Shown: positions 47,192-59,377 of the stretch, one piece after another | Position numbering within the stretch: the first letter of the stretch is position 1 | Layout of the letters: each line of letters begins with the position of its first letter | Source: a virus | Taxonomy: Duplodnaviria; Caudoviricetes | DNA: 60,193 nucleotides | Reading direction: 5' to 3' (one strand) | IMG/VR virus record: IMGVR_UViG_3300030104_006323 | Coordinates: 1 to 60,193 of that record | Translations under genes and position numbers: made by a program | Notes under the pieces: model-generated | The model's input: the letters and a program-made list of their open reading frames with translations, nothing else | The model's database searches: none | What the model was told of the DNA's origin: nothing

Positions 47192-47501
47192 CTGTTTCTA
47201 AATTTAATTTGAGATTAATAAAATCTAAATACTCATCCATATCTATGAATTGTAAATCAGATAGAACCATTAGATAGTCATCAGGTTTTAAAATTTCAAG
47301 GATAAATGGAACTGGTTCGTCAAAGTGATAAACCAATCCAGCAACCAGGTGAGTATGTAGAGGATTAGCGGGAACATCAGGGAGATATTCCTCAATGTAT
47401 AAGGTGATAGTAAGGGATAGAGTAGGTGGTGTTTTTTCTAATGTAGAAATAAAATCATCATCTAACTCATACTCCTTTGTGTACGGTAACTTTAACTCCA
47501 T
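47148..47501 (-). CDS. acidic hypothetical protein
   Basis: ORF track; start uncertain (47552 or 47501). Confidence 0.6.
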   Translation of the reverse strand: MELKLPYTKEYELDDDFISTLEKTPPTLSLTITLYIEEYLPDVPANPLHTHLVAGLVYHFDEPVPFILEILKPDDYLMVLSDLQFIDMDEYLDFINLKLNLETDERFSYPRFTDHRK

Positions 47502-47709
47502 GCGCTTTAAGTTCTTCAATTCTATATTCTTGTAATTTAGAAATTTTCCCATTTGCTTTTTTAACTTCTATGAACTCAACATCAGAGTTATTAGGTATGG
47601 CTATTAGATCAGGTATACCATTTTTATTGGTAAGTTTTAATTTAATAACATAATATCCCATCGCCTCATACTGCTTAATTAATTTGGCTTGTATCTGCTG
47701 TTCCGTCAT
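47467..47709 (-). CDS. VRR-NUC domain nuclease
   Basis: EQQIQ...GIPDL...FIEVK...LQ, a PD-(D/E)XK pattern. Confidence 0.85.
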   Translation of the reverse strand: MTEQQIQAKLIKQYEAMGYYVIKLKLTNKNGIPDLIAIPNNSDVEFIEVKKANGKISKLQEYRIEELKAHGVKVTVHKGV

Positions 47710-48946
47710 CGTTTAAAGTTACTAAATCTTTCTTGAAATGACTCAGCGTATAATCTTTCTTCTTAACAACAGCTTTGTAAATTTGTTTTTCTATACCAGT
47801 TTTAGAAAAAATCCAATATATTTTATTATACAACCTATCTTTGGTTGTCATTCTATCTCTTGACTGCCAGTAACTTGTAGCGCTGAAATCAATATTATAA
47901 TACACCAAGGCTTCTGCTTTTCGTAAGCTGATTCCTTCTCTTCCGCTTACAATTTGTAGAGCAATAGACTTATTAGTGGTATTAAATTCTTCTAAAGTTT
48001 CACAAAGAGAATTACCAAATTCATCTTTCAAGGCTTGGAGTTCTGCTTTAAACTTATAAAAGATAGCTATCTTTTTACCTGCAAATTTTTTCATTATGTA
48101 TGTAGCTTTTTTATGACACAACACCATGCTGTTACCACTTTCAAACTTAATGGTTCCTGAACTCATTTGGTGACTTTTAATCATCAGCTTGACAGGAGTG
48201 TCAGCAAGTATAACTTCAGAGTCTCCTTTGATTACACGATCTTTTGATAAGCGCTTCATTAAATCAGTTACACCACCACAGATATCAACAAACAAAATCT
48301 GTTCATTGGTTTGAACTTTAAAACCCGCTTGGTTTTGAGTAAAGGATATGGTATACTTTTTCATGGCTTTAAGTATGTCCTCCCTACCGTGTGACCAGTC
48401 ATTGTGAGGTATTCCATTTATTATTTTTTTCTTGACATCCACATAGTTTCTTGCAAACTGATAAAAGTTTTTACAATATTCAAAAGGATTATTATAGATC
48501 CCACACACCTGGTGATACATCTGACTGTAAGATTCAGGCGTAGGTGTCCCAGATAAAAGCAAAACTCTTGGGTGATGTATATCAATTAACCTTTTAATTT
48601 GTTTACTTCTTTTGTTTTGTTTTGGGAAAGCTCCTATGGTATGAGCTTCATCAATAATTAAAAAATCATAGATTGTCTCATGAGACACTTTGTGTAGTGA
48701 CTCATAGTTAATAACCAATAACTTAAAGTTACCCTGAAGCTTTTGCATGTCATCCTCAATACTGGATATAGCTTTCTTCTTTGTAACAAACAAAACATTA
48801 GTAGCTTTTAATCTTTGACAGATGCTAAGACTGGTAAGGGTTTTACCAGTCCTAACTTCCATTGCTAAATAGCAAAAACCATAGCGTGTTACAAGGTCAG
48901 AACCCTGTGTTACAATCTGTTTTTGATATGGTCTAAGTTTTATCAT
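47675..48946 (-). CDS. SF2 (SNF2-like) helicase
   Basis: LRPYQ, EVRTGKT, IIDEAH, LSGTP, QSRDR motifs. Confidence 0.88.
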   Translation of the reverse strand: MIKLRPYQKQIVTQGSDLVTRYGFCYLAMEVRTGKTLTSLSICQRLKATNVLFVTKKKAISSIEDDMQKLQGNFKLLVINYESLHKVSHETIYDFLIIDEAHTIGAFPKQNKRSKQIKRLIDIHHPRVLLLSGTPTPESYSQMYHQVCGIYNNPFEYCKNFYQFARNYVDVKKKIINGIPHNDWSHGREDILKAMKKYTISFTQNQAGFKVQTNEQILFVDICGGVTDLMKRLSKDRVIKGDSEVILADTPVKLMIKSHQMSSGTIKFESGNSMVLCHKKATYIMKKFAGKKIAIFYKFKAELQALKDEFGNSLCETLEEFNTTNKSIALQIVSGREGISLRKAEALVYYNIDFSATSYWQSRDRMTTKDRLYNKIYWIFSKTGIEKQIYKAVVKKKDYTLSHFKKDLVTLNDDGTADTSQIN

Positions 48947-51351
48947 CAGAATGGAAAGTCTTGTTGTTCATCGAGCTCAGATTTATGTCTGAATCTTATC
49001 CACCTGGCTTGCATATCCCTTCCTTCTTCTGGTGGACAACCATAATGAAATAAAGAAAAAGCAACAAGCCATTTAGAAAACCTAACTCTGGATACACTCA
49101 TCTTAGATTTAGGGGCAAAGTCTGGGTTATCTTCCACAAAATCCTGATACAATTCATTCTTCGGCACCTTACCTTCTGGTTTTAATTTATCATGTATAGG
49201 ATTATCTCCTATAACTCCACACCATTCTATAAACTCATGACAAGTTTCAGCTGATAGCTTTCTAATTTTTAAATTGACAAACTCACTCTTCATTAATCCT
49301 TTTTCTAAATACAACTGCAAGCATTGTATCATGTAGTTGTCAAACTGACACCACTCTTCATCATTCCAATCTCCAAACATAAGTTTACCAAATTCTTCTA
49401 ATGGAGTGTAATCTTTATTATAGTGATGAGCCAACTCAAGTTCCCACTTTCTTCTTTCAAACGATGTACCTTTACCTTTAATTGCATAGTTAGTTGTGAT
49501 AGATATCTTAGGAGATTTAGCAAAAGGTATTTTAATCGCGTCTTTGTTTTTCTTTTCAAGAGTCAATCCTTCTGTTACGACAGAAAATAATCTTTCAAAG
49601 TCAAAGTGTTTCTTTACATCATCAAAGCAAAGTATCTGAGTATCAGCACTAACTAATTGGTAGGCAAATGATCTTTCAAAATTAAAAGACTTACCATCAA
49701 TAACAACAACCTTCTTCATATGGCTTAAACCATTAACCCACAAACCTTTACCACTTCCTCCTTCAGGGTTGTCTGATATCATTTCATCATTCAATATAAC
49801 TGCGGGACAGTAAGCTAAATTTTTCCAACCATGCAACATGTAGCCAATAGTGGATCTCATACTGTTTGTTCTTTCATCTGAATTACCACAAATGTTTTGT
49901 ATAAATTTTTGGTAATCACAATTAATACTTTGACACAATGCAAAGTCTCTATCTATCACATGATCCTTCCAAACATAACCACCTAAATCTAAATAATCTA
50001 TTTGTTTTATATTATTAAATGTAATTTCAACTGCGCAGTTTCGGTAATATAAATATGATGTGGTTTTTTTATCTTCGATAAAGTAAACATCTATTGAAGA
50101 CAACAAGGTTAAAAACTCTTCACGAAAATAGCGAGTATGTTCTGCAAAATAATTATATACCGCAAAATCATCTAACTCTAATAAGTAATTTAGTATATAA
50201 TCTTTAATTTCTTTTTCAGATGTATGATCAATTAAGTTGTTTGTAACTTTTACAAATACATAATTTTTGCTACCCTCTGGACAGAACTTATAAAAACCAT
50301 TCTCTTCTAAAAAGTTTTTAAAAGATACATGAACAATTTTTATTACACCTTTTTCATTCTTTGTCCAGAATTGGTGATTGCTTTGTTCTTCTTCTAATCT
50401 ATTGATAACATTTTCTACCAAGTTAGGCTCAAGATCAGTAAGCTGTGTTCGTAATTCTTTTTTAGAAACACCTCTTTTTAATTTATGTTTGATCATGTTT
50501 ACCTTTTCATCATCTTCATAATACTTGGTGCCAAAATTTTGTACTTGTGCATAAGCAGAATCTATGGTTCTTTTTATTTCACTTTTCTTAAATGTTGATG
50601 TTTCAAATCCATTAAGGACATACTCGGCTAAAGTTTTAGTAACTCCATAATCATTGAAAGCTGAAGCTAAAACATAAGCATTGTTATTTCTTTGACCCTC
50701 AATCATTGGGTATTTTTTTTGCCACCACTTAACAAGAATCTCTACAATTTTATTCTCATCTGTTATAGGAATGGTTTGAAGATCAACATTCTTAATAACC
50801 TCATTATACTCTTTTTCTTCTTGTCTATCCCATACACTTGCATTTTCGTTTATATGTATAAGTGGATCATAACTTTCGTAGCAAACCCTGGATACATTTT
50901 TACAAGTCTTGTCAAATTGTGGAGATTTAAAATGCTTTTCTAAACTATTAAAGTAGCTTACATGATTGTCAGGAAGAGGAGGTATTTTAACTATTGCTTT
51001 TAAACCTTTACCTGATGGAGATATAAATACTGAATAAACATATTTGTTTTTAGACAGTCTTTCTTTTTCTTGTAACAAATCTCTTTGTGTATCGTAGCCA
51101 TCGAAATCTAAACAGATTAGACCACTGTGTTGGCTTAGAGATTTATCGTTTCTTTTTGTAAACTTACCACTAAAACATATAGCTGGAAGCTTTTGTTTGA
51201 GTGAGTTAATTTTTTCTTTATCTTTTTCTTCTCTTATTTTTTTTACTAAATCCTTGGAAGCTCCATCTTTTATTCTTTCCAGAATAACCAAAGCGCTACG
51301 GTAAAAAGGCTGTGATGTTACTTTTATATCTTTAAATATTGTTATTTCCAT
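48946..51351 (-). CDS. primase-helicase (BT4734/VirE-N-like, PriCT, P-loop helicase)
   Basis: KQKLP...SG.F...CLDFD, FISPSGKGLK, EGQRNN, GGSGKG, FDD, ITTN. Confidence 0.85.
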   Translation of the reverse strand: MEITIFKDIKVTSQPFYRSALVILERIKDGASKDLVKKIREEKDKEKINSLKQKLPAICFSGKFTKRNDKSLSQHSGLICLDFDGYDTQRDLLQEKERLSKNKYVYSVFISPSGKGLKAIVKIPPLPDNHVSYFNSLEKHFKSPQFDKTCKNVSRVCYESYDPLIHINENASVWDRQEEKEYNEVIKNVDLQTIPITDENKIVEILVKWWQKKYPMIEGQRNNNAYVLASAFNDYGVTKTLAEYVLNGFETSTFKKSEIKRTIDSAYAQVQNFGTKYYEDDEKVNMIKHKLKRGVSKKELRTQLTDLEPNLVENVINRLEEEQSNHQFWTKNEKGVIKIVHVSFKNFLEENGFYKFCPEGSKNYVFVKVTNNLIDHTSEKEIKDYILNYLLELDDFAVYNYFAEHTRYFREEFLTLLSSIDVYFIEDKKTTSYLYYRNCAVEITFNNIKQIDYLDLGGYVWKDHVIDRDFALCQSINCDYQKFIQNICGNSDERTNSMRSTIGYMLHGWKNLAYCPAVILNDEMISDNPEGGSGKGLWVNGLSHMKKVVVIDGKSFNFERSFAYQLVSADTQILCFDDVKKHFDFERLFSVVTEGLTLEKKNKDAIKIPFAKSPKISITTNYAIKGKGTSFERRKWELELAHHYNKDYTPLEEFGKLMFGDWNDEEWCQFDNYMIQCLQLYLEKGLMKSEFVNLKIRKLSAETCHEFIEWCGVIGDNPIHDKLKPEGKVPKNELYQDFVEDNPDFAPKSKMSVSRVRFSKWLVAFSLFHYGCPPEEGRDMQARWIRFRHKSELDEQQDFPF

Positions 51352-51367
51352 TAGATTATATTCTGTT

Positions 51368-51474
51368 TTTTATGACGAGAATGACAAAGTAAAGTAATAA
51401 TATAGATATAGATAAATATAAAATCAAAATTATTGTGTCAGTCTATTAATTGTATTTGAGTTTGTCATAGTCAG
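51368..51474. repeat. second ATGAC/GTCA repeat element with an AT-rich core
   Basis: ATGAC at 51372 and 51381; GTCA at 51437, 51464 and 51470; shares TTTTATGACGA and AGTTTGTCAT with 41-152. Confidence 0.7.
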
Positions 51475-51476
51475 CA

Positions 51477-51513
51477 TAAAAGAGGGGCAGGAGTCAACCA
51501 CGAAACCGCCCCT
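51477..51513 (-). terminator. probable intrinsic terminator after ssb
   Basis: - strand AGGGGCGG-N15-CTGCCCCT-CTTTT. Confidence 0.55.
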
Positions 51514-51543
51514 AAATTATGCACACCTTTCGGCTTCCAAAAT

Positions 51544-51831
51544 CTAAAAAGGAATATCGTCAACAGGACTCTCCTCTTTTGTTTGAGGTTCAGGAACAAA
51601 TGTATTTACTTGCACCGAATGAGTTTTCCCATATTCGTCTGTCTCCCTTTTCTTCTGCACCTTTATGGGTGCCCATGTTTCCATGATACCAGTCTTATTG
51701 TTTTTAATTTGCTTTCTAAACTCCTGAGGAATACGAGAAAGACAAACAAAAGCTTCGACTAAATTACCATCAAACTTCTCTACACCATTACCAATGTAGA
51801 TTGGATCTGAGTTTTTTGAATTATCATTCAT
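51544..51831 (-). CDS. putative single-stranded DNA-binding protein
   Basis: acidic tail VDDIPF; DEYGKTH; next to exonuclease and annealase genes. Confidence 0.65.
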   Translation of the reverse strand: MNDNSKNSDPIYIGNGVEKFDGNLVEAFVCLSRIPQEFRKQIKNNKTGIMETWAPIKVQKKRETDEYGKTHSVQVNTFVPEPQTKEESPVDDIPF

Positions 51832-52093
51832 TGTTTAACAATTTAATATTACGCTCCAAAATATTAACAGCATTTAGAATGGTTTTATCCCTTTCCTCTT
51901 TGCTCATATAGATAGTTGGAACTTCTATCCATAATTTTTTATCATCTAATTTAAGTTTTCTTTTAAATAAATTAAAGAACTTCCGTAAAGATGTAATCAC
52001 TAATGTCATGAGTTGCATGATCACTGAAAAATTTTTCATATATTTTAATTGCTTGTTTAACTTTAGTTTCACCAGAAAAAATAAACTCTTCAC
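51824..52093 (-). CDS. hypothetical protein (true start probably downstream)
   Basis: ORF track; the 5' part overlaps the exonuclease gene. Confidence 0.45.
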   Translation of the reverse strand: MKSLFFLVKLKLNKQLKYMKNFSVIMQLMTLVITSLRKFFNLFKRKLKLDDKKLWIEVPTIYMSKEERDKTILNAVNILERNIKLLNNE

Positions 52094-52769
52094 TGCATGG
52101 TGAAAATTTTATTGTTCCTAATTTTTTATCTATTGCTATAAACAACATAGGTTTATCAAATAATTCTTGATATATATATGCTTGACTATCATAGCAATAA
52201 GTCATACTTGAATGGCGAAATTTAGATATGTCGCTACTTGTTTTAAGATCAACAACAGCTCCATGAGGATAATGCCATTCTTGTATATTACCTTCTCTAT
52301 CTTCTACAAGAACAGTAAAAGGATTATCTACAAGGACATCACATTTGCCTTTAAACATTTGTCCATGTATTTCTTTTATGTTTGGAATTTCATATTCAGC
52401 TCCAGTAATAATTTCAAATACAGAAATATTGGTTATTAATGTTTCAACTAAATGATCCATTCTTTCTTTTTCTTTTTGCAACATTACATCATAAGTTTCA
52501 ATGTCATGTTCCATGAGATAAGACTTATAAGCATTTGTGTTTCGAGAAGAAGAATTAAATACAGGTATAGTACCTATCTTTTCTGGCTCCAATATCTTTG
52601 TATGAAAGTATCTACCCTCAAGTAATGGAAGAGTTTTAATAGTTTGATTAAATTTAGTTGGTTCATAAAGCAACTGCCTTATATTAGAAGCAGATAAAAA
52701 CTGCTTACCAAACTTACCATAATACTCTGAATCATCTTGAAGCTTTTCAATTATCTTCTCCCTATCCAT
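51972..52769 (-). CDS. PD-(D/E)XK exonuclease (RecE/ExoVIII, DUF3799-like)
   Basis: LSASNI, GRYFHTKILEP, KGKCD, VDLKT, YDSQAYIY. Confidence 0.8.
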   Translation of the reverse strand: MDREKIIEKLQDDSEYYGKFGKQFLSASNIRQLLYEPTKFNQTIKTLPLLEGRYFHTKILEPEKIGTIPVFNSSSRNTNAYKSYLMEHDIETYDVMLQKEKERMDHLVETLITNISVFEIITGAEYEIPNIKEIHGQMFKGKCDVLVDNPFTVLVEDREGNIQEWHYPHGAVVDLKTSSDISKFRHSSMTYCYDSQAYIYQELFDKPMLFIAIDKKLGTIKFSPCSEEFIFSGETKVKQAIKIYEKFFSDHATHDISDYIFTEVL

Positions 52770-53343
52770 TGATCGCTTTTTTAACTTTGGTTTTAACAGA
52801 TGGAGTTATGTTATATTTAGTTGCGAGTTTATTAATGATCCACTCTAACCCTTTGTCTTTGTTCTTAGCCACATATAACATTATTTTATCCCAGTTATCT
52901 GATTTGATATCCAGAGTTACATGTTTTTGTACCGCTTTAACATTGTCGTTTTTATTTAAACGAGCTGTATCCTCTCCAATCCAAAGAGATAAACCTAATC
53001 CGTGCATAGCTATTGCCTTTGCTGTTGCTCTTTGTATAGCATTGTTTACATCAAAAGATGTAAGCTTAGTAAGAGGAATAGATCTATTTGAGTTATCAAG
53101 AACAGGCAGATAATCTATGTGTTCCACATCATTTATCACTATACCTACTTTTACATTAGCAAACTTTCCATCTGTAAAGTAAGGCATACCTACTTCATTT
53201 TCATATACTATTCTGTTTGCTGTTGGGTACTCTTGCTTTACATAATGCCAAGCCCAAGCCCAAGAAAGATAATCGAATCTTCCCTTTTTTTCTACTTTAT
53301 CTTTTACAGATATACTGCTTAATTTGTTATATACATTTTCCAT
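52762..53343 (-). CDS. Sak3-like single-strand annealing protein (DUF1071-like)
   Basis: EKKGRFDYLSWAWAW, LPVLD, NNAIQRATAKAIAMHGLGLSLWIGED. Confidence 0.85.
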   Translation of the reverse strand: MENVYNKLSSISVKDKVEKKGRFDYLSWAWAWHYVKQEYPTANRIVYENEVGMPYFTDGKFANVKVGIVINDVEHIDYLPVLDNSNRSIPLTKLTSFDVNNAIQRATAKAIAMHGLGLSLWIGEDTARLNKNDNVKAVQKHVTLDIKSDNWDKIMLYVAKNKDKGLEWIINKLATKYNITPSVKTKVKKAING

Positions 53344-53344
53344 A

Positions 53345-53734
53345 TTATAAATTATTAAATTCTGTTTTTAAATTTGTGTATTTGTTGAGTAAGTTTTCTC
53401 TTCTCGTTTTTAAATTTTGAATGTGCTTATCATTCTTTCTGGTGTTTAATTCAGTTTTAATTTTATTTTCTATTATGTTAAGCTTATGTAAGCAATTCCC
53501 CATACTGACTTGCATACACCCTTTTTTCCAACCAGAAGATAAAAAAAATTCATACTCTTCTGGAGTACATTCTTTAAAATAATCCCCACCTTTACCCATA
53601 TTTAATATCTGTACCTCCTCAAATTGCTGAATTTTTACACCTCTACCAATAACAGACACACCCTTAGGTAATATACTTTTAATACTTTTGGGATCCTCTA
53701 AAGCTTGTTTCATAATATCAGCTCTTGTGAACAT
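53345..53734 (-). CDS. hypothetical protein with a C-terminal coiled coil
   Basis: ORF track; tight packing. Confidence 0.7.
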   Translation of the reverse strand: MFTRADIMKQALEDPKSIKSILPKGVSVIGRGVKIQQFEEVQILNMGKGGDYFKECTPEEYEFFLSSGWKKGCMQVSMGNCLHKLNIIENKIKTELNTRKNDKHIQNLKTRRENLLNKYTNLKTEFNNL

Positions 53735-53735
53735 T

Positions 53736-54047
53736 CTATACTTTTAAATTTTGTAATTCGATTGTGTTTACAATAGCTTTATAATCTTCATCTTGCTCTA
53801 CCATAAGTTTCGCTTTTTTATATCCATGTATTATAGTAGAGTGGTTTAGATCGCAACCATGTGAAGCCATGAATCTTTGAATATAAGAAACTCTAATAGG
53901 TCTTTCCATACACAAATAGTAAAGCATTTGTCTGGCATCTACCAAATCTCTTCTTTTGTTTTTGTTAAACATCTCATCTAAATTTAGATGAAATTGTTTT
54001 GCTACTGCATTGGCGTAGCTGTCAAATATATTTTTATTATAACTCAT
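53736..54047 (-). CDS. DnaA domain IV-like HTH protein
   Basis: VAKQFHLNLDEMF...RRDLVDARQMLYYL...NHSTIIHG. Confidence 0.75.
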   Translation of the reverse strand: MSYNKNIFDSYANAVAKQFHLNLDEMFNKNKRRDLVDARQMLYYLCMERPIRVSYIQRFMASHGCDLNHSTIIHGYKKAKLMVEQDEDYKAIVNTIELQNLKV

Positions 54048-54397
54048 TATTTAAACTCTTTTAATTTTTCTTGCTTACTTTTAATTAACTTTTCTTTAAT
54101 AATATTTTCTTCTTTACGAATTTGCACAAGTAGAAGAATTAAATATCCTGTAATATCCCTAACAGTATCAACCCCACTTTCATCTTTCATTGGATCGCTA
54201 CCTATATGCTGAATAGATAATTTTTTTATTCTACTTAACTTGTCATCAATTCGCGCAAGTAAACCTTCCTTTGCAGAAAGTTTACTAAAAATTTGAGGGG
54301 GGTTATTAGCGGTGTCTCCATACGCTTTATTTTTTTCAATAAGTAGCATAACTACTTCTCGACCTACCTCTTTAATTAATTCTTGTGTTGTTTTCAT
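54047..54397 (-). CDS. nucleotide-modification-associated domain protein (DUF1599/Nmad1-like)
   Basis: KNKAYGD...RIDDKLSRI...DTVRDITGYLIL. Confidence 0.75.
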   Translation of the reverse strand: MKTTQELIKEVGREVVMLLIEKNKAYGDTANNPPQIFSKLSAKEGLLARIDDKLSRIKKLSIQHIGSDPMKDESGVDTVRDITGYLILLLVQIRKEENIIKEKLIKSKQEKLKEFK

Positions 54398-54534
54398 ATT
54401 GTAAATACTTTATATATTAAGCAGACAAAAACAAAGATCATTAAAAAACTTATCATGATCTCCATAAACTTATAGGTGTTTTCAACTTTATGTTGAGGTC
54501 TGCCTTGTCTATATTTTTTATCTTCCTCTGTCAT
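54394..54534 (-). CDS. 46-aa membrane peptide (MTEEDKKYRQGRPQHKVENTYKF + TM)
   Basis: hand translation; ATGA overlaps at both ends. Confidence 0.65.
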   Translation of the reverse strand: MTEEDKKYRQGRPQHKVENTYKFMEIMISFLMIFVFVCLIYKVFTI

Positions 54535-54683
54535 TGAACTGCAATACCTGAAGAATTAAATATAACACCATGCTCTGCTGAGTTTACCCATTGTCGAGCT
54601 TCATCAATAGATTTGGTTTCCCTTACTTCATCTGGCTGTTCTCCGCCATAAAATAATTCTACTCTATATGTTGTTTCTTTCAT
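54531..54683 (-). CDS. 50-aa hypothetical protein (MKETTYRVELFYGG...)
   Basis: hand translation; A-rich leader. Confidence 0.65.
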   Translation of the reverse strand: MKETTYRVELFYGGEQPDEVRETKSIDEARQWVNSAEHGVIFNSSGIAVQ

Positions 54684-54694
54684 AATTTTATTTT

Positions 54695-54764
54695 AAAAAA
54701 GGTGGCTGATTATATCCTGTGCTATTATCATTTAGGGAATATTTATAGGACTATCCCCACCACC
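54695..54764 (-). ncRNA. candidate structured cis RNA (possible pseudoknot)
   Basis: outer GGUGG/CCACC followed by U6; inner GGGGAUA/UAUUCCC; loop GUCCU can pair with downstream AGGAU. Confidence 0.35.
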
Positions 54765-54780
54765 TGTTAACATAAACTAA

Positions 54781-54996
54781 CTATATGAATAACGGAGCCT
54801 CCTCTTCAGAATCTCCACTCTGAATCGGTTTGTTGTTAGGCTCACTATCTTTAATATTTTTACCCCACGGAATAGGAGGAAGCTCTGGTCTTAGCTTCTC
54901 TTTTTTATCCTTTTCATTTACACTTAAAGGAAACAAAGAATCCAGAAACTTATCGAAAACTTTGTCTTGATATTGTAGTAATTTGTTGTATTTCAT
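54781..54996 (-). CDS. hypothetical early protein
   Basis: ORF track. Confidence 0.55.
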   Translation of the reverse strand: MKYNKLLQYQDKVFDKFLDSLFPLSVNEKDKKEKLRPELPPIPWGKNIKDSEPNNKPIQSGDSEEEAPLFI

Positions 54997-55026
54997 TTGA
55001 CTTAATTTAATTTAATTATACCAAAA

Positions 55027-55191
55027 TTAATCTTTTTGTCGCAATTTTGCAAACAAACTGACAAATTTATACGCCTCATGGCTAAATAAATATTTTTTCT
55101 CGGTAGGATTATAGTAAGAATAATTTTTATCCTCTACTTTTACAACCTTGTTGCCAGTAGCTTTAGATCTAAATTCAAATTCGTATTCCAT
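55027..55191 (-). CDS. hypothetical early protein (start MEYEFEF)
   Basis: 3' part of track ORF 55027..55320; start moved to avoid overlapping the upstream gene. Confidence 0.55.
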   Translation of the reverse strand: MEYEFEFRSKATGNKVVKVEDKNYSYYNPTEKKYLFSHEAYKFVSLFAKLRQKD

Positions 55192-55192
55192 A

Positions 55193-55498
55193 TTATTTAT
55201 CTTTTGAGATTTCATATTCAAAATTAGAATCATCATTACATTCATGACATGGAGTAGTATATGCCATATCGCAGTAATAATCTGAATGCCATATCTCTCC
55301 CTCTCCACCACAAGTTTCACATGGCTTTACATATTCAATTAATTTTTGACAAGTTTCGTTTCTGAAGAAAAGATCATCTTCTTCATCTATGTATATTACA
55401 TCTCCAGTATCTCCATTGAGAGCCATGTCTCCTACTTTTATTTCTCCCTCAGAAATAATATATTCGTTGCCAAAACCATCTTCATAAATTTCACTCAT
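55193..55498 (-). CDS. hypothetical protein with a DnaJ-type zinc finger
   Basis: CETCGGEG ... CHEC. Confidence 0.7.
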   Translation of the reverse strand: MSEIYEDGFGNEYIISEGEIKVGDMALNGDTGDVIYIDEEDDLFFRNETCQKLIEYVKPCETCGGEGEIWHSDYYCDMAYTTPCHECNDDSNFEYEISKDK

Positions 55499-55701
55499 TA
55501 CATTCTTAATTTTATTTGTGAATAAACAATATTAGTTAATCGTTCAGCATCATGAACATCAATGTCATGACCAAATTCATCATAAACATATTGCATCAAG
55601 TCTAAGTTATCTATAATAGTATCAGCGCAGTTAATTACTTTGTCTCTGCAGTTTTCTATTACTTTTGTTTTATTCTCGTGTGTATTTAATTTTACTTTCA
55701 T
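55498..55701 (-). CDS. hypothetical early protein
   Basis: ORF track; TAATG coupling. Confidence 0.65.
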   Translation of the reverse strand: MKVKLNTHENKTKVIENCRDKVINCADTIIDNLDLMQYVYDEFGHDIDVHDAERLTNIVYSQIKLRM

Positions 55702-55962
55702 AATTCTTCTATTTCATTTTATTTTATTTTAAATTAATTTTCTATGTCGTATAAATTTATATGGGCAAACTCTTTAGCAAACTCCTCATAAGTCATTGTT
55801 TGCTTTTTAGAATTTTCTTTATCTGTCAACATTGCCACAACACGATTTGAATAAAACAAAATCATGGTTTGGCAGTCTTGTAGATCTGTTTTCCTATCCC
55901 ATTCATAATAACAATAGGCAGTAAATAAGTATTTGTCTTTCATAATTCTTCTATTTCATTTT
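55695..55962. repeat. 26-bp exact direct repeat flanking one gene
   Basis: CTTTCATAATTCTTCTATTTCATTTT at 55695-55720 and 55937-55962. Confidence 0.85.
55734..55943 (-). CDS. hypothetical early protein
   Basis: ORF track; lies between the direct repeats. Confidence 0.65.
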   Translation of the reverse strand: MKDKYLFTAYCYYEWDRKTDLQDCQTMILFYSNRVVAMLTDKENSKKQTMTYEEFAKEFAHINLYDIEN

Positions 55963-56104
55963 GTACTTCATCAATCTTATCTAAGATTGGCTGAATTAAA
56001 TTAATTGTTTCATGGTCGTCATCACTTCTTACCAAACTCATTACTCTACTATAAGCTTCATCTAAAATGCTTATTGCTTGTTTTATTTCTTGTGTTTTAC
56101 TCAT
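55940..56104 (-). CDS. 54-aa helical protein (MSKTQEIKQAISILDEAY...)
   Basis: hand translation; ATGA overlaps at both ends. Confidence 0.65.
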   Translation of the reverse strand: MSKTQEIKQAISILDEAYSRVMSLVRSDDDHETINLIQPILDKIDEVQNEIEEL

Positions 56105-56421
56105 AATTGATAAAATAATCTTGTTTCTCTTTGATGATCAAACGCTATTGCCTGTGCCTCTAACCTATCTTCAGGACTAACACAAACAAATTTTCTGTGC
56201 ATAAATACATTGGAGGAATTACCCCAAGTTGTTCTGTATTTAATTTTTTCTTTCCTTAATTTTTTAATGAAAGATTTTATTTCAGCTTCTGCAACATCAG
56301 ATGGACAAGGAGAATCCTCAGTCATGCCTGTATAATTGCAACCAGCAATCGCATTGATTGGCTCAAGATAACCTCTCCAGCCATCAATTCTTATGTATTT
56401 AGTTTTAGTGGTATTTATCAT
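56101..56421 (-). CDS. hypothetical early protein
   Basis: ORF track; DGWRGY and SSNVF motifs. Confidence 0.7.
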   Translation of the reverse strand: MINTTKTKYIRIDGWRGYLEPINAIAGCNYTGMTEDSPCPSDVAEAEIKSFIKKLRKEKIKYRTTWGNSSNVFMHRKFVCVSPEDRLEAQAIAFDHQRETRLFYQL

Positions 56422-56430
56422 TCTTTTGAT

Positions 56431-56628
56431 TTAATGGTTTATATTATTTAGAAATACAACACTATCTAAAATGTTGTTGGTTTCTGAGTCAAACAAATCT
56501 TCTTCAAGATGATTTAATCTCATCACTTCAGAATCGTTATTGAATCTATAATTTATGTCGCAGTTATCAATGTTTCCATGTTCTGCTTCTAAGTTTTCAA
56601 TAATTTTTTTAAGGTCTTTAATTTTCAT
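56431..56628 (-). CDS. hypothetical early protein
   Basis: ORF track. Confidence 0.65.
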   Translation of the reverse strand: MKIKDLKKIIENLEAEHGNIDNCDINYRFNNDSEVMRLNHLEEDLFDSETNNILDSVVFLNNINH

Positions 56629-56849
56629 TCTTTTGATTTTAAGTTATACTTTTCCATTGCAACTATATCAATGGCTTCAAAGATAGTTTGATATACTGAT
56701 TCACTGCTCAAAGCATCATTTAAACATTCCCAAGCAGTATCATCATCACACTTATAATTCATCTGTACATCATCAATATGCCATAAGCTATCAACATATC
56801 CTTTTTCTTTTAATTTATCTCTAAGTTTTAATGTTTCTTTATATCCCAT
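56625..56849 (-). CDS. hypothetical early protein
   Basis: ORF track; LWHIDDVQ. Confidence 0.7.
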   Translation of the reverse strand: MGYKETLKLRDKLKEKGYVDSLWHIDDVQMNYKCDDDTAWECLNDALSSESVYQTIFEAIDIVAMEKYNLKSKE

Positions 56850-56860
56850 AATTATTAATT

Positions 56861-57208
56861 TTAAATAGAATTTAATCGTATACTGTATGCGCTTTCTAAT
56901 CTTTTTTGATTTTCCTCGTAGCTAACATACGCCCACTTATCATCAGAATAATAATGATTAGTTAATTGATGAAAATATTTTTTTAACATCTCACTAATTG
57001 AAACTAACCGCTTATCTTCTTTCCAATTCTCTATGTTGCAGTCGCTACAAACTCTGCCCAACATTCCACCACCTAAGTAGTTTTGATATGCTGTCATTTT
57101 ACCATTGGGATATTCCCAATCCGCAAGAGATATCTCAATCCCCCCACCGCGTGAGTTATATTTTTCTCTTATAATTGCTTGCTCTATTATTGTATTTGTG
57201 TTTTCCAT
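56861..57208 (-). CDS. hypothetical early protein
   Basis: ORF track; AYQNYLGGGMLG. Confidence 0.7.
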   Translation of the reverse strand: MENTNTIIEQAIIREKYNSRGGGIEISLADWEYPNGKMTAYQNYLGGGMLGRVCSDCNIENWKEDKRLVSISEMLKKYFHQLTNHYYSDDKWAYVSYEENQKRLESAYSIRLNSI

Positions 57209-57212
57209 AATT

Positions 57213-57243
57213 CAAATTTAAGTTATTTTTATTTATTGTGCAA
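57213..57243 (-). promoter_or_regulatory. Bacteroidota-type promoter, possibly giving a leaderless mRNA
   Basis: - strand TTG (57243-57241), 20 nt, TAAATTTG (57220-57213), only 4 nt before the ATG at 57208. Confidence 0.5.
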
Positions 57244-57373
57244 CTTTTGTTGACAAAAAGTTTATTTCAATCTGTTCTCCAACCTTATATTTAGGAGAAA
57301 TAAGTTTTTTTAATCGCCTTAATTCTCTGGCTTTTCTAACCGCATACATGATCTGATATTCTTTTCTGTGCAT
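57233..57373 (-). CDS. 46-aa basic hypothetical protein (MHRKEYQIMY...)
   Basis: hand translation; TAATG coupling. Confidence 0.55.
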   Translation of the reverse strand: MHRKEYQIMYAVRKARELRRLKKLISPKYKVGEQIEINFLSTKVAQ

Positions 57374-57678
57374 TACCATATTAAATCTAAATATTCCATT
57401 TGTCCTTTTTCATAAGGAACAGAAGCTATTAAATAATTTAATCTGTTTACATAATGAAAGCCCTGAACTATATATAATTTATCATCTACCTCAATTAATG
57501 TCCAGATAAATTTATCATCATGTTTTTTTACATATTCTAAATCCCTACCATATGTCTCAAAGTATTGCGGAGAGCCACCGCATTGAGCTTCTGTTTGCCC
57601 CTCTTTATATTCAGGGTGTTCCAAATGATTATATATTGGTTTATATTTGTCGTAAAATAAATCGCTGTTTTCTGTCAT
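57373..57678 (-). CDS. hypothetical early protein
   Basis: ORF track; FETYG...IWT...GFHYVNRLNY. Confidence 0.75.
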   Translation of the reverse strand: MTENSDLFYDKYKPIYNHLEHPEYKEGQTEAQCGGSPQYFETYGRDLEYVKKHDDKFIWTLIEVDDKLYIVQGFHYVNRLNYLIASVPYEKGQMEYLDLIW

Positions 57679-57680
57679 AG

Positions 57681-57878
57681 TTATTGATTTTTTAATTCTG
57701 TTTCTTTTTCAAATTGCGCGTGTCTTTTCCAATAAGAAAAAAACATTTCAATTTCTTCAATATCTTTTGCAAATTCTTTTTGTTGACCTCTTGCATAAAT
57801 ATTATCTATTATCTCGTTTACATGATGCTCTACTTTTTTCAAGTCATCAATTAAAAATCCTTGTAAATTTTCGTCCAT
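57681..57878 (-). CDS. hypothetical early protein (start MDENLQG)
   Basis: 3' part of track ORF 57681..57938; A-rich leader before the ATG at 57878. Confidence 0.6.
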   Translation of the reverse strand: MDENLQGFLIDDLKKVEHHVNEIIDNIYARGQQKEFAKDIEEIEMFFSYWKRHAQFEKETELKNQ

Positions 57879-57899
57879 AGTTATTTGTTTAATTTTAAA

Positions 57900-57967
57900 A
57901 TAATTAGCGTGTGATTTCTCGGACAATTCCATGCACATAGTTTTTTTATACTTGTCGCACTAATCAT
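57900..57967 (-). ncRNA. candidate structured cis RNA
   Basis: 10-bp stem AUGAUUAGUG/CGCUAAUUAU enclosing GACAA/UUGUC and a CUAU-GUGC-AUGG hairpin. Confidence 0.4.
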
Positions 57968-57972
57968 TTTAT

Positions 57973-58134
57973 TTAATTTAAAGGTTTATAATCCTCATCA
58001 AGTGGATTTTCAAAATCTCTTATAATTTCAATAGGAACTAAAATAATTTCTTTGGTTTCTTTATGTTCCCAAATTTCTAATTCTCCACCTACTTTGGTAC
58101 AAGAATATTCGTAATCTTTTTTATCTATTTTCAT
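57973..58134 (-). CDS. 53-aa hypothetical protein (MKIDKKDYEYSC...)
   Basis: hand translation; fills the gap. Confidence 0.65.
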   Translation of the reverse strand: MKIDKKDYEYSCTKVGGELEIWEHKETKEIILVPIEIIRDFENPLDEDYKPLN

Positions 58135-58135
58135 T

Positions 58136-58450
58136 TTATCTAAATTTATTATTAATTAATACTTCTTTGATTTTTTCAATTTTGAGATTTATCATATCAA
58201 TTTGGAAATACATTTTATCTTTATGGTGTTTCCAATTTGGAATTTTTTTGTCGTTGTCTCTATGAATATATGACCAGAGGCGCGTTTCTTCCTGTTGTAA
58301 TTCAATTAATTCATTGACTAAAAATTCTCTATTATCTTTGCTCAAAAAATTTTGGTCTTTTAACCACATTAAATGGTCTTGTTCTTCTTGCTCAGCTTCA
58401 GCTTCTGCCTTTTTGCGCCAAGCTTCTCTTTGTGATTCTGATATTTTCAT
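58136..58450 (-). CDS. hypothetical early protein
   Basis: ORF track. Confidence 0.7.
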   Translation of the reverse strand: MKISESQREAWRKKAEAEAEQEEQDHLMWLKDQNFLSKDNREFLVNELIELQQEETRLWSYIHRDNDKKIPNWKHHKDKMYFQIDMINLKIEKIKEVLINNKFR

Positions 58451-58463
58451 TTTAATTAATTTA

Positions 58464-58518
58464 AGTTAAGACCGCGCTTGGTGGCGCGGTTTCGGACTTC
58501 AGCCCTCATCAGTTAACT
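58464..58518 (-). ncRNA. type I hammerhead ribozyme
   Basis: AGUUAA-CUGAUGA-GGGC(UGAA)GUCC-GAAA-CCGCGC(CACCAA)GCGCGG-UC^UUAACU; complete core, three stems, GUC cleavage triplet (cut between 58470 and 58469). Confidence 0.95.
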
Positions 58519-58520
58519 AT

Positions 58521-59087
58521 TTAAGCTTTTTGGAAATTCTCCAATCTTTTAAGTTTTTCCGCGTTGGGTAAAGTGTCCCAATCACTTGGCTTTTCCCAGT
58601 TTGGAATTTGACTTTTCATTGTAGCAAATACAATTTTCTCTTTGTATTTAATCTGATCTGAAACGCTTTCTTTATTAGTCGATAGGTCTCCCAATAATAA
58701 AAATGTTTTCGCCATATTTAAAGCAGGATTTTTTGGCTCTGGCTTATCATCTAAAATTCCCTGATAGTCAGAATAAAATATTTTATTTAATTCCTTTGTT
58801 TTATAAGTACCTTTATTAATTAGGTCTTCAAGCTCATCAGTACTTAATTTAATAGCGTTTGCCCTGTCAATTTTCCAACTGCATTGAGTCATCTGCTTTG
58901 CAGTAGATGAGGAGTAACGGCTTTTATTTTCGTACCATTGACCGCCTACGCTGACAAATACAGGATAATAACCATATGACCTGACCACATACGCCCCCTT
59001 TTCAAATTCTGCGCTTAAATTGTTTGCCTGAAATTCTAATTTTTTAGCTACATATTCCGCGCTGTTTTTATTACTTATTCTATCCAT
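58521..59087 (-). CDS. hypothetical early protein flanked by two ribozymes
   Basis: ORF track; YVVRSYGYYP...WYEN..RYSSSTAKQ N-terminal domain plus a separate C-terminal PSDWDTL domain. Confidence 0.8.
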   Translation of the reverse strand: MDRISNKNSAEYVAKKLEFQANNLSAEFEKGAYVVRSYGYYPVFVSVGGQWYENKSRYSSSTAKQMTQCSWKIDRANAIKLSTDELEDLINKGTYKTKELNKIFYSDYQGILDDKPEPKNPALNMAKTFLLLGDLSTNKESVSDQIKYKEKIVFATMKSQIPNWEKPSDWDTLPNAEKLKRLENFQKA

Positions 59088-59106
59088 TTTATTTAATTTA
59101 TGTTAT

Positions 59107-59172
59107 ACAACGCCAACCCCTAAGGGCTGACCGCGTTGGGCTTAATGCCTGTTTATACTCGCCCAAACGAGT
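59107..59172 (-). ncRNA. pistol ribozyme
   Basis: P1 ACUCG/CGAGU with loop UUUGGG; AUAAACAG; P2 GCA/UGU; UUAAG; pseudoknot CCCAA; GCG; P3 GUCAGCCC(UUAG)GGGUUGGC; G^U site (cut between 59111 and 59110). Confidence 0.9.
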
Positions 59173-59377
59173 TTTTAAATTCCTCTATGTATAAGTTTAT
59201 TAACACATAGAACAGGAATACTTGGAACGCTAAGATTAACCCAAACACCCCAAGCGCAACGAATCCCTCGATTTCTTTTGCAACTTCCCACATCATGCGC
59301 ACTGCTGAGATTAAAACAACTGAACAACACGCGCCCAGAATTAGAACTTGAATTTTTTTTGCTATTGAATTTTTCAT
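59153..59377 (-). CDS. two-TM small membrane protein, first gene of the early operon
   Basis: two hydrophobic helices; its last codons and stop form the pistol P1 and AUAAA linker. Confidence 0.7.
   Translation of the reverse strand: MKNSIAKKIQVLILGACCSVVLISAVRMMWEVAKEIEGFVALGVFGLILAFQVFLFYVLINLYIEEFKNSFGRV

What the first reader, a model, noticed from the sequence alone, without database searches (positions are those of the whole stretch)
58464..59172. Two different self-cleaving ribozymes (pistol and hammerhead) bracket one early gene and should excise a 641-nt ligatable mRNA
Seen: on the sense (-) strand a pistol ribozyme cuts 23 nt upstream of the ATG of the 188-aa ORF. A type I hammerhead starts 2 nt after its stop and cuts at 58470/58469. 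Known: both classes leave a 5'-OH and a 2',3'-cyclic phosphate, the substrate ends of RtcB ligases, and engineered circular-RNA systems use the same twin-ribozyme layout. Inference: the early transcript processes itself without protein into monocistronic units. The 59110-58470 piece could be a stabilised 5'-OH mRNA or a natural circular phage mRNA. I saw no RNA ligase in the window, so ligation would need a host enzyme, and I saw no stem joining the two ends.
Basis: partly seen in the sequence, partly recalled or inferred. Interest (0 to 1): 0.92.

Follow-up and report, generated by a model that had tools for sequence, protein, structure and literature searches.

The report
Pistol and hammerhead ribozymes flank phage gene
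Two different self-cutting RNA motifs really do sit on either side of one early gene of a marine phage, most likely to chop a long early transcript into separate messages, which is a known phage pattern and not evidence of a circular mRNA.

Summary
A pistol ribozyme (59172..59106, minus strand; Rfam 67.6 bits, cut-off 34.5) would cut at 59111|59110, 23 nt before the ATG of the 188-aa ORF. A type I hammerhead (58518..58464) has a complete catalytic core and three stems. It starts 2 nt after the stop, would cut at 58470|58469, and lies 19 nt before the next ATG. The piece between the cuts is 641 nt. The hammerhead fails Rfam's cut-offs, but 0 of 200 shuffles gave an equal match, and relatives show compensatory changes.

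The window is a whole ~60-kb phage related to phages of marine Flavobacteriia. In related contigs, homologous genes are flanked by pistol/pistol, hammerhead/hammerhead or pistol/hammerhead, always on the gene strand. The cut usually lies 24-25 nt before the next start codon, and a unit holds about 1-3 genes (290-1175 nt).

The best reading is self-processing of the early polycistronic transcript. Perreault et al. proposed this in 2011 for hammerhead clusters in prophages; they also looked for circular products and found none. Nothing here supports a circle: no end-joining stem, no phage RNA ligase, and no RNA data. It is a new member of a known kind, of moderate interest.

The parts
59153..59377 (-). 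74-aa ORF, the first clear ORF of the leftward early block. It has two hydrophobic segments and is probably a small membrane protein. Its last 20 nt, stop codon included, lie inside the pistol.
   Evidence: ORF list. Only weak Pfam rows below cut-off. The same 20-nt overlap in the same frame recurs in relatives such as L007, L039 and L076.
59106..59172 (-). Pistol self-cleaving ribozyme; predicted cut between G59111 and U59110.
   Evidence: Rfam RF02679, 67.6 bits against a cut-off of 34.5. P1 and the pseudoknot covary across 13 related pistols. L039 shows a G-C to U-A exchange in the pseudoknot.
59088..59110 (-). 23-nt A/U-rich leader that would carry the 5'-OH end of the excised RNA.
   Evidence: Sequence. 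The first 40 nt of the 641-nt unit are unpaired in the minimum-free-energy fold.
58521..59087 (-). 188-aa ORF of unknown function, member of a conserved marine-phage protein family.
   Evidence: 34 homologues at E <= 0.001, aligned as A1. No Pfam or PHROG family at a meaningful score. No clear fold match.
58464..58518 (-). Type I hammerhead ribozyme; predicted cut after C58470.
   Evidence: Complete core and three stems. Descriptor hit with 0 of 200 shuffles as good. My covariance model R1 gives 79.2 bits; the window was one of its 5 training sequences. 12 of 17 pairs show changes on both sides among 7 distinct relatives. It is below every Rfam cut-off.
58451..58469 (-). 19-nt A/U-rich leader of the next cistron, which would start with the 5'-OH left by the hammerhead.
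   Evidence: Sequence and spacing table.
58136..58450 (-). 104-aa ORF, first gene of the downstream fragment. The hammerhead-plus-leader-plus-this-gene arrangement is conserved in L039.
58470..59110 (-). The 641-nt RNA expected between the two cuts. It comprises the leader, the 188-aa ORF and nearly the whole hammerhead as a structured 3' end.
   Evidence: Length and fold.

Best explanation
The two ribozymes are processing sites in the early leftward transcript of a ~60-kb phage of marine Bacteroidota.

As the RNA is made, each ribozyme folds and cuts itself near its own 3' end. The folded, G+C-rich ribozyme therefore stays on the upstream fragment as a structured 3' end with a 2',3'-cyclic phosphate. 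The downstream fragment begins with a 5'-OH about 20 nt before its start codon, on an unstructured A/U-rich leader.

In this phage the result is three RNAs. The first holds the 74-aa ORF plus the pistol. The second is the 641-nt piece with the 188-aa ORF plus the hammerhead. The third is the rest of the operon, starting at the 104-aa ORF.

Shown here: both motifs exist, their orientation and spacing are as described, and they are conserved and interchangeable in relatives. Inferred: cleavage in vivo. Also inferred: that its purpose is to uncouple the stability and/or translation of neighbouring early genes.
For: (1) Both motifs are real.

(2) 116 related loci plus the window gave 61 pistol hits (nhmmer E < 1e-4; 42 distinct sequences) and 9 hammerhead hits (7 distinct), in 35 of 117 sequences. 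All lie on the strand of the genes. Rfam confirmed 15 pistols in 36 IMG/VR loci and 29 in 20 metagenome loci.

(3) Homologues of the 188-aa gene are flanked by different classes. L039 has pistol and hammerhead. L021/L112 have hammerhead and hammerhead. L040/L041 have a pistol upstream and another downstream. L005/L064/L068 have a pistol overlapping the stop.

(4) Spacing is constrained. Of 44 distinct pistol-plus-flank sequences with a downstream ORF, 32 leave a 24-25-nt leader and 42 leave 22-28 nt. The 7 distinct hammerheads leave 18-31 nt.

(5) Structure is under selection. The pistol pseudoknot is paired in 100% of cells, with 4 of 6 pairs changed on both sides. In the hammerheads, 12 of 17 pairs changed on both sides.

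(6) In whole records the ribozymes cluster. 5 of 36 IMG/VR records carry pistols, 1-3 each, and where there are several they lie within about 2.1 kb next to the homologue. 1 of 36 carries hammerheads.

(7) Cultured relatives show the same layout. Tenacibaculum phage Gundel_1 has a pistol 19 nt before the next annotated CDS. Flavobacterium phage elemoD has a hammerhead-like match whose cut lies 28 nt before the next ATG.

(8) Precedent: hammerhead clusters that flank genes in prophages cleaved in vitro as expected (PMC3088659, passages). Reviews name processing of polycistronic RNA as the leading idea (PMC6765202, passages).
Against: There are no RNA data. No listed sequencing run that holds this stretch is on record as RNA, so cleavage in vivo is unproven.

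The hammerhead is below all Rfam cut-offs. I found no conserved extension of stem I or loop contact of the kind natural hammerheads use at low Mg2+, so its rate in cells is uncertain.

Most relatives of the gene carry no ribozyme: 82 of 117 sequences, and 30 of 36 IMG/VR records. The ribozymes are therefore dispensable for the gene family.

The constant spacing could partly reflect recent duplication of a pistol-plus-leader module, since leaders within one genome are alike.

The hammerhead pair counts lean towards the structure. 6 of the 7 distinct sequences were first picked by a descriptor that demands perfect stems, and the alignment was fitted to the model.

Whether a 5'-OH stabilises or destabilises RNA in this host is unknown.
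Confidence: 0.7

Rival explanations
1. Circular mRNA. After both cuts the 641-nt RNA is closed into a circle, either by a host RtcB-type ligase or by the reverse reaction of a ribozyme. This would give a stable, repeatedly translated early message.
For: The end chemistry of both classes fits RtcB (PMC8782182, abstract and introduction passages). RtcB is present in 40 of 151 sampled genomes of the class that holds the hosts of the cultured relatives; one of the 40 is the unpublished genome G126. It is also present in 2 of 2 MAGs that carry a contig with the phage-like GroEL. The first three bases of the pistol product could pair with the free stem I strand of the hammerhead (my reading; weak).
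Against: There is no helix joining the ends. The summed pairing probability between the first 25 and last 61 nt is 0.155. The best duplex is -2.3 kcal/mol, weaker than the control mean of -3.4.

No RtcB, Rnl2-type or T4 Rnl1-type ligase is in this phage (annotation). Neither RtcB nor the Rnl2-type family is in 5 other ribozyme-bearing records, 3 of them at least 99% complete.

Unit length and gene content are not conserved: 290-1175 nt, and 641 against 785 nt in the closest distinct relative. The ORF has an ordinary stop codon.

Perreault et al. looked for circular or spliced products of hammerhead clusters and report none, as data not shown. 111 of 151 sampled genomes of that class gave no RtcB match.
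Confidence: 0.05
2. Decay or polarity switch. Cleavage mainly destabilises the downstream RNA, because a 5'-OH end is fed to a 5' exonuclease as with the glmS ribozyme product. The ribozymes would then set a step-down in expression along the operon or shorten the life of early messages.
For: The positions are the same as in the best explanation, and no data here fix the sign of the effect. The precedent of glmS product decay by RNase J1 is recalled and comes from no call. The review notes that processing could give transcripts of differing stability or translation efficiency.
Against: The cut is placed to leave a complete, unstructured 24-25-nt leader before the start codon. That looks like preservation of the downstream message, not its disposal. 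The RNase content of the host is unknown.
Confidence: 0.13
3. Recombination or mobile module. The ~90-nt ribozyme-plus-leader cassettes are repeated junction sequences that spread with, or promote the shuffling of, small early gene cassettes between phages. Cleavage would be secondary.
For: Leaders after pistols within one genome are nearly the same. Gene content between the same two ribozymes differs between close relatives: L039 has an extra 49-aa ORF. A 290-nt unit with one 74-aa ORF sits between two pistols in L070/L075. The distribution is patchy: 6 of 36 IMG/VR records.
Against: Catalytic cores and helices are kept by compensatory changes, which argues for selection on the fold itself. 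Two unrelated ribozyme classes occupy equivalent junctions, so what is shared is cleavage, not sequence. No transposase, homing endonuclease or reverse transcriptase lies nearby.
Confidence: 0.1
4. Inactive relics or chance look-alikes with no function.
For: The hammerhead fails Rfam's cut-offs. Nothing has been tested at the bench.
Against: Pistol E-value is 3.5e-10. 0 of 200 shuffles gave a hammerhead of this quality. There is conservation with covariation. Strand and spacing are strict.
Confidence: 0.02

Closest known systems
Clustered hammerhead ribozymes flanking genes in prophages (Perreault et al. 2011, PLoS Comput Biol, PMC3088659; passages read)
   Same: Several self-cleaving ribozymes in one orientation flank single genes or short gene blocks in phage DNA. 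The identity of the flanked genes is not constant. Processing into single-gene or operon-length mRNAs was proposed, and circular or spliced products were considered.
   Different: Those clusters are all hammerheads in prophages of cultured bacteria, and three were shown to cleave in vitro. Here the pair is mixed (pistol plus type I hammerhead) in the early operon of an uncultured marine phage, and nothing has been tested at the bench.
Pistol ribozyme class (Rfam RF02679; Weinberg et al. 2015, not held here; Harris et al. 2015, PMC4604425, passages read)
   Same: Full-length match with P1, P2, P3, the pseudoknot and the G-U cleavage step. Pistols were discovered by searching intergenic regions near genes and ribozymes associated with hammerhead and twister, and they are often near phage genes.
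   Different: No difference in the motif itself. Points of context that I did not see stated in the passages read: the first 20 nt are also the end of the upstream ORF, and the cut lies a near-constant 24-25 nt before the next start codon in this phage group.
Hammerhead variant 13 nt upstream of the helicase start codon in haloarchaeal viruses HF1/HF2 (described in PMC3088659)
   Same: The ribozyme sits just before the start codon of an early gene of a lytic virus. The mapped 5' end of the transcript lay within 3 nt of the predicted cut.
   Different: That is an archaeal virus with a core-variant hammerhead at the first ORF of the transcript. Here the ribozymes lie between cistrons.
[quoted passage not shown]
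   Same: A type I hammerhead fills a short intergenic UTR and cuts a few nt (7 nt in one case) before a start codon, producing a shorter RNA whose ORF is then 5'-proximal.
   Different: Those are eukaryotic hosts and RNA genomes. The link to translation was tested there and not here.
Twin-ribozyme circular RNAs: viroid-like agents and retrozymes (PMC6765202; PMC7761336), and engineered twin-ribozyme expression systems (recalled, no call)
   Same: Flanking ribozymes leave a 5'-OH and a 2',3'-cyclic phosphate on one RNA.
   Different: Those RNAs have base-paired ends and a known ligase, and the circles have been seen. Here the ends do not pair, no ligase is encoded, and there are no RNA data.

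Membership tests
Pistol ribozyme (RF02679) | Covariance-model score at or above the curated gathering score over the full model | tested here: met
   67.6 bits against 34.5, model positions 1-68 of 68, E 3.5e-10.
Pistol ribozyme (RF02679) | P1 hairpin, and a pseudoknot between the P1 loop and the P2-P3 junction, supported by covariation | tested here: met
   Counted on 13 pistols (A2). P1 is 92.3% paired with 2 of 4 pairs changed on both sides. The pseudoknot is 100% paired with 4 of 6 changed on both sides. 0 of 500 shuffles reach the covariation score. L039 shows a G-C to U-A exchange in the pseudoknot. P3 was read by eye in the window only, because the MAFFT columns of P3 are not in register.
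Pistol ribozyme (RF02679) | G-U cleavage step in the linker between P3 and P2 | tested here: met
   Model positions G63-U64 align to G59111-U59110. In one subgroup of related pistols the 3' end differs and I could not place the step with certainty.
Pistol ribozyme (RF02679) | Mg2+-dependent site-specific self-cleavage | not testable with these tools
   Needs in vitro transcription.
Hammerhead ribozyme, type I | Conserved core: CUGANGA, GAAA, and U followed by a non-G base at the cut | tested here: met
   All are present at 58512..58470 and invariant in the 6 aligned hammerheads of A3.
Hammerhead ribozyme, type I | Three helices around the core, stem I open, supported by covariation | tested here: met
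   Stems of 6, 4 and 7 bp. 12 of 17 pairs changed on both sides among 7 distinct sequences, and 119 of 119 cells paired. Caveat: the sequences were picked by a descriptor that requires the stems, and the alignment was fitted to the model.
Hammerhead ribozyme, type I | Score above the gathering threshold of an Rfam hammerhead model | tested here: not met
   Nothing at gathering. Best rows: RAGATH-1-hammerhead 25.8 bits against 56.3, and HH9 15.6 against 52. I still file it as a hammerhead on the core and helices. Part of the RAGATH-1 shortfall is a poorly matched 5' hairpin in the alignment.
Hammerhead ribozyme, type I | Tertiary contact between stem I and loop II (or a pseudoknot) that gives fast cleavage at cellular Mg2+ | tested here: inconclusive
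   No conserved stem I extension or bulge was found in an alignment with 15-nt flanks. Loop II is A-rich in all copies.
Ribozyme clusters that process phage polycistronic RNA (Perreault et al. 2011) | Two or more self-cleaving ribozymes on the gene strand flanking a gene or short gene block in phage DNA | tested here: met
   True of the window and of 20 related loci that carry two or three ribozymes.
Ribozyme clusters that process phage polycistronic RNA (Perreault et al. 2011) | Products of the expected sizes from a native-length transcript | not testable with these tools
   Expected sizes from a 59200..58430 transcript: 90, 641 and 40 nt.
Twin-ribozyme circular RNA | Base-paired 5' and 3' ends that hold the termini together for ligation | tested here: not met
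   The first 40 nt are unpaired in the MFE fold. End-to-end pairing probability sums to 0.155. The end duplex (-2.3 kcal/mol) is weaker than in 92% of control windows.
Twin-ribozyme circular RNA | A ligase for 5'-OH and 2',3'-cyclic phosphate ends is available | tested here: inconclusive
   None in the phage or in 5 related ribozyme-bearing records. The host is unknown. RtcB was found in 40 of 151 sampled genomes of the class that holds the cultured relatives' hosts, one of them the unpublished G126.
Twin-ribozyme circular RNA | Junction-spanning RNA molecules | not testable with these tools
   Needs RNA from infected cells.

The most novel reading that the evidence does not exclude
In phages of Bacteroidota, whose genes have no Shine-Dalgarno sequence, self-cleaving ribozymes act as makers of start-codon-proximal 5' ends. 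Each cut would turn an internal cistron into a 5'-terminal one with a free, unstructured leader of fixed length (24-25 nt), which sets or boosts its translation. It would also leave the upstream message capped by a folded 3' end. The ribozyme class would be irrelevant, since pistol and hammerhead are swapped at equivalent junctions. What is selected would be the position of the cut relative to the AUG.

This would give a concrete function to the long-unexplained ribozymes of phages. It would parallel what was recently reported for RNA viruses of fungi and plants.
Probability: 0.25. Interest if true: 0.7.

Novelty: new member of a known kind. Interest (0 to 1): 0.42.

Why it matters
What the many self-cleaving ribozymes of bacteria and phages are for is still open (review PMC6765202). 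This locus does not change the picture by itself, because ribozymes flanking phage genes and the link between pistol and other ribozymes are already in print.

The comparative set around it is useful for three reasons:
- One conserved gene family is bounded by either class of ribozyme.
- The distance from the cut to the next start codon is strict, in a group of phages without Shine-Dalgarno sequences.
- Two cultured phage-host pairs carry the same layout (Tenacibaculum phage Gundel_1; Flavobacterium phage elemoD).

Together these make the function testable at the bench.

Tried and rejected
RNA evidence: no RNA holder was listed for 58300-59400. 20 of the 22 listed rows hold at least part of the stretch and none is on record as RNA.

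Rfam: no hammerhead at gathering. Sensitive scans of 51300-55250 and 55250-60193 gave no further ribozyme family. Model R1 found no second hammerhead in the window.

Close relatives: a single-protein scan of viral contigs found none. blastn of 56000-60193 and tblastn of the 188-aa protein against 50,697 phage records found none.

Function of the 188-aa protein:
- Pfam gave only DUF5850 at E 0.075, and PHROGs only phrog_19962 at E 0.0012.
- The AlphaFold model has mean pLDDT 78.
- Foldseek against the PDB gave nothing at E <= 0.001. The top rows, plant ribosome-inactivating A chains at E about 0.09 and TM 0.23 over 79 columns, I reject as noise.
- VIA-align wide gave a best Z of 5.2 for the helical C-terminal part, within the range the tool calls a common arrangement.
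- The Atlas look-alikes (score 0.86, DUF8033 on 10-32% of members) are a lead only.

End-joining stem: none. Extended stem I or another tertiary element of the hammerhead: none seen.

The G+C-rich island at 59600-59745 does not fold better than shuffles on either strand (z -0.87 and +0.19).

Whole-record search of the metagenome loci was not possible. I used nhmmer on the loci instead, plus one Rfam scan of 20 of the 80 metagenome loci. The other 60 were screened for pistol by nhmmer and for hammerhead by R1 only, so other ribozyme classes could be missed there.

Papers not held: Weinberg et al. 2015 and Lihanova and Weinberg 2021 on pistol ligation (seen only as a title in a reference list). 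Their content, and any supplements, may bear on gene associations and on ribozyme-catalysed ligation.

Print search: 6 searches listed no paper on pistol arrays in marine or flavobacterial phages or on a fixed cut-to-AUG distance. This is no proof that none exists.
Full report
WHAT IS THERE. The window is a complete or nearly complete virus record (60,193 bases, 96% by CheckV). On the minus strand, Rfam's pistol model matches 59172..59106 end to end at 67.6 bits against a gathering score of 34.5, with E 3.5e-10. The model's G63-U64 step, the known cleavage site of the class, falls on G59111/U59110. This leaves 23 nt before the ATG (59087) of the 188-aa ORF 58521..59087.

Two bases after that ORF's stop codon, 58518..58464 reads as a textbook type I hammerhead. 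It has a 6-bp open stem I, CUGAUGA, a 4-bp stem II, GAAA, a 7-bp stem III and UC, with the cut after C58470. The next ORF (104 aa) starts at 58450, 19 nt after the cut. The RNA between the cuts is 641 nt. Every coordinate in the finding is right.

IS IT MORE THAN CHANCE. The pistol needs no further argument. The hammerhead does, because it is below all Rfam cut-offs. Nothing was reported at gathering. It was not listed in the whole-window or 5-kb E-value scans. In a 201-nt scan the best rows were RAGATH-1-hammerhead at 25.8 bits (cut-off 56.3) and HH9 at 15.6 bits.

I wrote a descriptor for the core and the three stems. It found this site as the only hit of that quality in the window. In 200 dinucleotide-preserving shuffles of the window it gave no hit of equal quality and 4 loose ones. 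The same descriptor found hammerheads of the same build next to related genes in L021/L112 (two each), L039, L065 and L069.

A covariance model built from five of these scored the copy left out, L021 542-598, at 54.9 bits with E 5.9e-12. It found nothing else at E below 0.18 in 427 kb. Among the 7 distinct hammerheads, all 119 pair cells are paired and 12 of 17 pairs show changes on both sides. That count leans towards the structure, because the sequences were chosen for having the stems and the alignment was fitted to the model. The placement of these sequences, on the gene strand at gene boundaries of homologous loci, is independent of that choice.

THE GENOME AND ITS HOST.
- Plus-strand genes 192..46126 encode GroEL/GroES homologues, terminase, portal and large virion proteins, one with a crAss-type muzzle domain.
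- The minus-strand block 46349..59377 holds about 30 small ORFs of unknown function, followed by recombination and replication genes.
- The terminase is 72% identical to that of an uncultured podovirus. It is 45% identical to 68 Flavobacterium 'elemo' phages and 32-37% identical to Cellulophaga and Tenacibaculum phages.
- Only 1 of 74 ORFs has a Shine-Dalgarno-like tetramer at -18..-4, and the 20 nt before start codons are 51% A and 83% A+T. That Bacteroidota initiate without Shine-Dalgarno pairing is recalled knowledge, not from a call.

I take the host to be a marine member of the Bacteroidota; this is an inference. The two ribozymes lie at the very start of the leftward block, after its first and second ORFs. 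I found no other ribozyme of a known family in the window.

RELATIVES. The 188-aa protein has no family assignment but has 34 homologues at E <= 0.001, mostly from marine samples. With their alignment (A1) I fetched 36 loci from IMG/VR and 80 from metagenomes.

Rfam at gathering found 15 pistols in the IMG/VR loci and nothing else but tRNAs. It found 29 pistols in 20 chosen metagenome loci. A pistol HMM built from 13 copies found 61 hits at E < 1e-4 in the 116 loci plus window, all on the gene strand.

In all, 35 of 117 sequences carry at least one ribozyme, with 42 distinct pistols and 7 distinct hammerheads. The two collections overlap and many loci are near-duplicates, so the distinct counts are the safer ones.

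In whole IMG/VR records, 5 of 36 carry pistols and 1 of 36 carries hammerheads. Where a record has several, they lie within about 2.1 kb beside the homologue. Two records that are 99-100% complete, of 62.5 and 62.8 kb, have exactly three pistols each and none elsewhere.

WHAT THE RELATIVES SHOW.

First, the class of ribozyme is interchangeable at equivalent junctions:
- The window and L039 (84% identical protein) have pistol upstream and hammerhead downstream.
- L040 and L041 (57-59%) have a pistol upstream and another after one or two more ORFs.
- L021/L112 have a hammerhead on each side.
- L005/L064/L068 have a pistol overlapping the stop codon.

Second, 'one gene' is not the conserved unit. 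In L039 the same pair encloses the homologue plus a 49-aa ORF, giving 785 nt. Units elsewhere run from 290 to 1175 nt with about 1-3 ORFs. What is conserved in L039 is the hammerhead together with its leader and the 104-aa gene behind it.

Third, the cut sits at a strict distance from the next start codon. Of 44 distinct pistol-plus-flank sequences with a downstream ORF, 32 leave a leader of 24-25 nt and 42 leave 22-28 nt. The 7 hammerheads leave 18-31 nt.

Fourth, the 5' part of many pistols is also coding. The 74-aa ORF upstream ends 20 nt inside the pistol in the window, and in the same frame in several relatives.

Fifth, the folds are kept by compensatory change. This holds for the pistol pseudoknot and P1, for a G-C to U-A exchange in the pseudoknot of L039, and for the hammerhead stems.

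Sixth, most homologues have no ribozyme. 82 of 117 sequences lack one, and in some (for example L004) the genes are packed with no room for one.

CULTURED EXAMPLES. Of five named phage genomes searched whole, two carry the layout. Tenacibaculum phage Gundel_1 has a pistol (65.6 bits) that ends 19 nt before the next annotated CDS. Flavobacterium phage elemoD_13-5B has a hammerhead-like match (38.2 bits, E 4.7e-8, with a very short stem II) whose cut lies 28 nt before the next ATG. In the elemoD record, a 35-aa reverse-strand CDS is annotated over the motif.

HOW IT MOST LIKELY WORKS. Both ribozymes cut near their own 3' ends. After cleavage the folded, G+C-rich ribozyme remains as the 3' end of the upstream RNA. 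The downstream RNA starts with a 5'-OH on an unstructured A/U-rich leader; the first 40 nt of the 641-nt unit are unpaired in the predicted fold.

The early transcript would thus fall into three pieces: the 74-aa message, the 641-nt 188-aa message, and the remainder. That the cuts happen follows from the known activity of the two classes, with rate constants for pistol near 10 per min at physiological Mg2+ (PMC4604425, abstract). It is not shown for these copies.

That the purpose is to uncouple the fate of neighbouring early messages is inference. It is the explanation already offered in print. Perreault et al. [quoted passage not shown] They showed cleavage of three such arrays in vitro (PMC3088659, passages). 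The 2019 review calls the function still open (PMC6765202, passages). Pistol itself was discovered by searching near genes and ribozymes associated with hammerhead and twister (PMC4604425), so a pistol next to a hammerhead is expected rather than surprising.

THE CIRCLE.
- The ends of the 641-nt RNA do not pair. The summed probability is 0.155, and the duplex at -2.3 kcal/mol is weaker than in 92% of control windows.
- The phage has no RtcB, Rnl2-type or T4 Rnl1-type ligase and no RNA-repair domain in 61 ORFs scanned against Pfam or 67 against PHROGs.
- Five other ribozyme-bearing records have neither RtcB nor the Rnl2-type family.
- A host enzyme cannot be assumed. RtcB was found in 40 of 151 sampled genomes of the class that holds the hosts of the cultured relatives; one of the 40 is the unpublished genome G126. 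It was found in both MAGs that carry a contig with the phage-like GroEL.
- Unit length and content vary between close relatives.
- Perreault et al. say they could not detect circular or spliced products.

None of this excludes a circle. I put it at about 5%.

A BOLDER READING THAT THE DATA ALLOW. The strict 24-25-nt leader, in phages whose genes lack Shine-Dalgarno sequences, suggests that what is selected is a free 5' end at a set distance from the AUG. This would be a way to make internal cistrons 5'-proximal for initiation. A related use of ribozymes was reported in 2026 for RNA viruses of fungi and plants (PMC13725137, abstract and passages).

The rival explanation for the constant spacing is recent duplication of a pistol-plus-leader module, since leaders within one genome are alike. 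Against that, the spacing also holds between divergent pistols with different leaders: the window, L005, L072 and Gundel_1. I give this reading about one chance in four.

VERDICT. This is a further, mixed-class example of a published phage pattern, so I rate it a new member of a known kind, of moderate interest. Its value lies in the comparative set and in the cultured systems that could settle what such ribozymes do.

Noticed in passing
window 59500-59800 (island 59650-59734): Upstream of the first early ORF lies a non-coding stretch with an 85-nt island of at least 54% G+C in a 33% G+C genome, plus runs of G/T-rich words on the minus strand. It has no Rfam match and does not fold better than shuffles on either strand. 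It could be an origin, a promoter region or an unknown RNA.
   Followed up: partly
window 51463-51535: A G+C-rich hairpin (7 pairs, 14-nt loop), followed on the minus strand by a T-rich run, sits in the 192-nt gap between the 95-aa ORF and the primase-like gene. It may end the early transcript. The terminator scan does not list it, because it accepts loops of 3-8 nt only.
   Followed up: partly
L124 1466-1573 (NC_055855.1 14105-14212): In the RefSeq record of Flavobacterium phage elemoD_13-5B, a 35-aa reverse-strand CDS (KNV13_gp34) is annotated exactly over the hammerhead-like match at 14140-14197. It is probably a spurious gene call over a structured RNA.
   Followed up: partly
L007 3294-3365, L008 3227-3298, L010 3800-3871, L032 3045-3116: The third pistol of each array has a different 3' end and a longer P3 loop than the others, although it scores 52-60 bits. 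I could not place its cleavage step or P2 with certainty from the MAFFT alignment.
   Followed up: no
L039 1166-1315: A 49-aa ORF lies between the 188-aa homologue and the hammerhead in the closest distinct relative. It is absent from the window, and its stop codon lies in stem I of the hammerhead.
   Followed up: partly
window 192-1793, 2055-2312, 16755-17336: The phage encodes a GroEL homologue (Pfam Cpn60_TCP1, E 5e-62), a GroES homologue, and a second GroES-like protein (phrog_13932). The closest GroEL-like genes in the bacterial genome collection (56-58% identity) lie on short contigs of MAGs, two of them Saprospiraceae. Those contigs are probably phage contigs binned with them.
   Followed up: partly
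window 39324-45791 and 35046-35825: There is a 2155-aa virion-region protein (phrog_32588, no Pfam domain) and a protein with a crAss muzzle C-terminal domain. This hints at kinship with crAss-like phages and possibly a virion-packaged RNA polymerase that would transcribe the early block. I did not test this.
   Followed up: no
window 56892-56914 (+): A weak match to a CRISPR repeat model (27.1 bits, cut-off 42) lies inside an ORF on the other strand. There is only one copy, so it is most likely chance.
   Followed up: no
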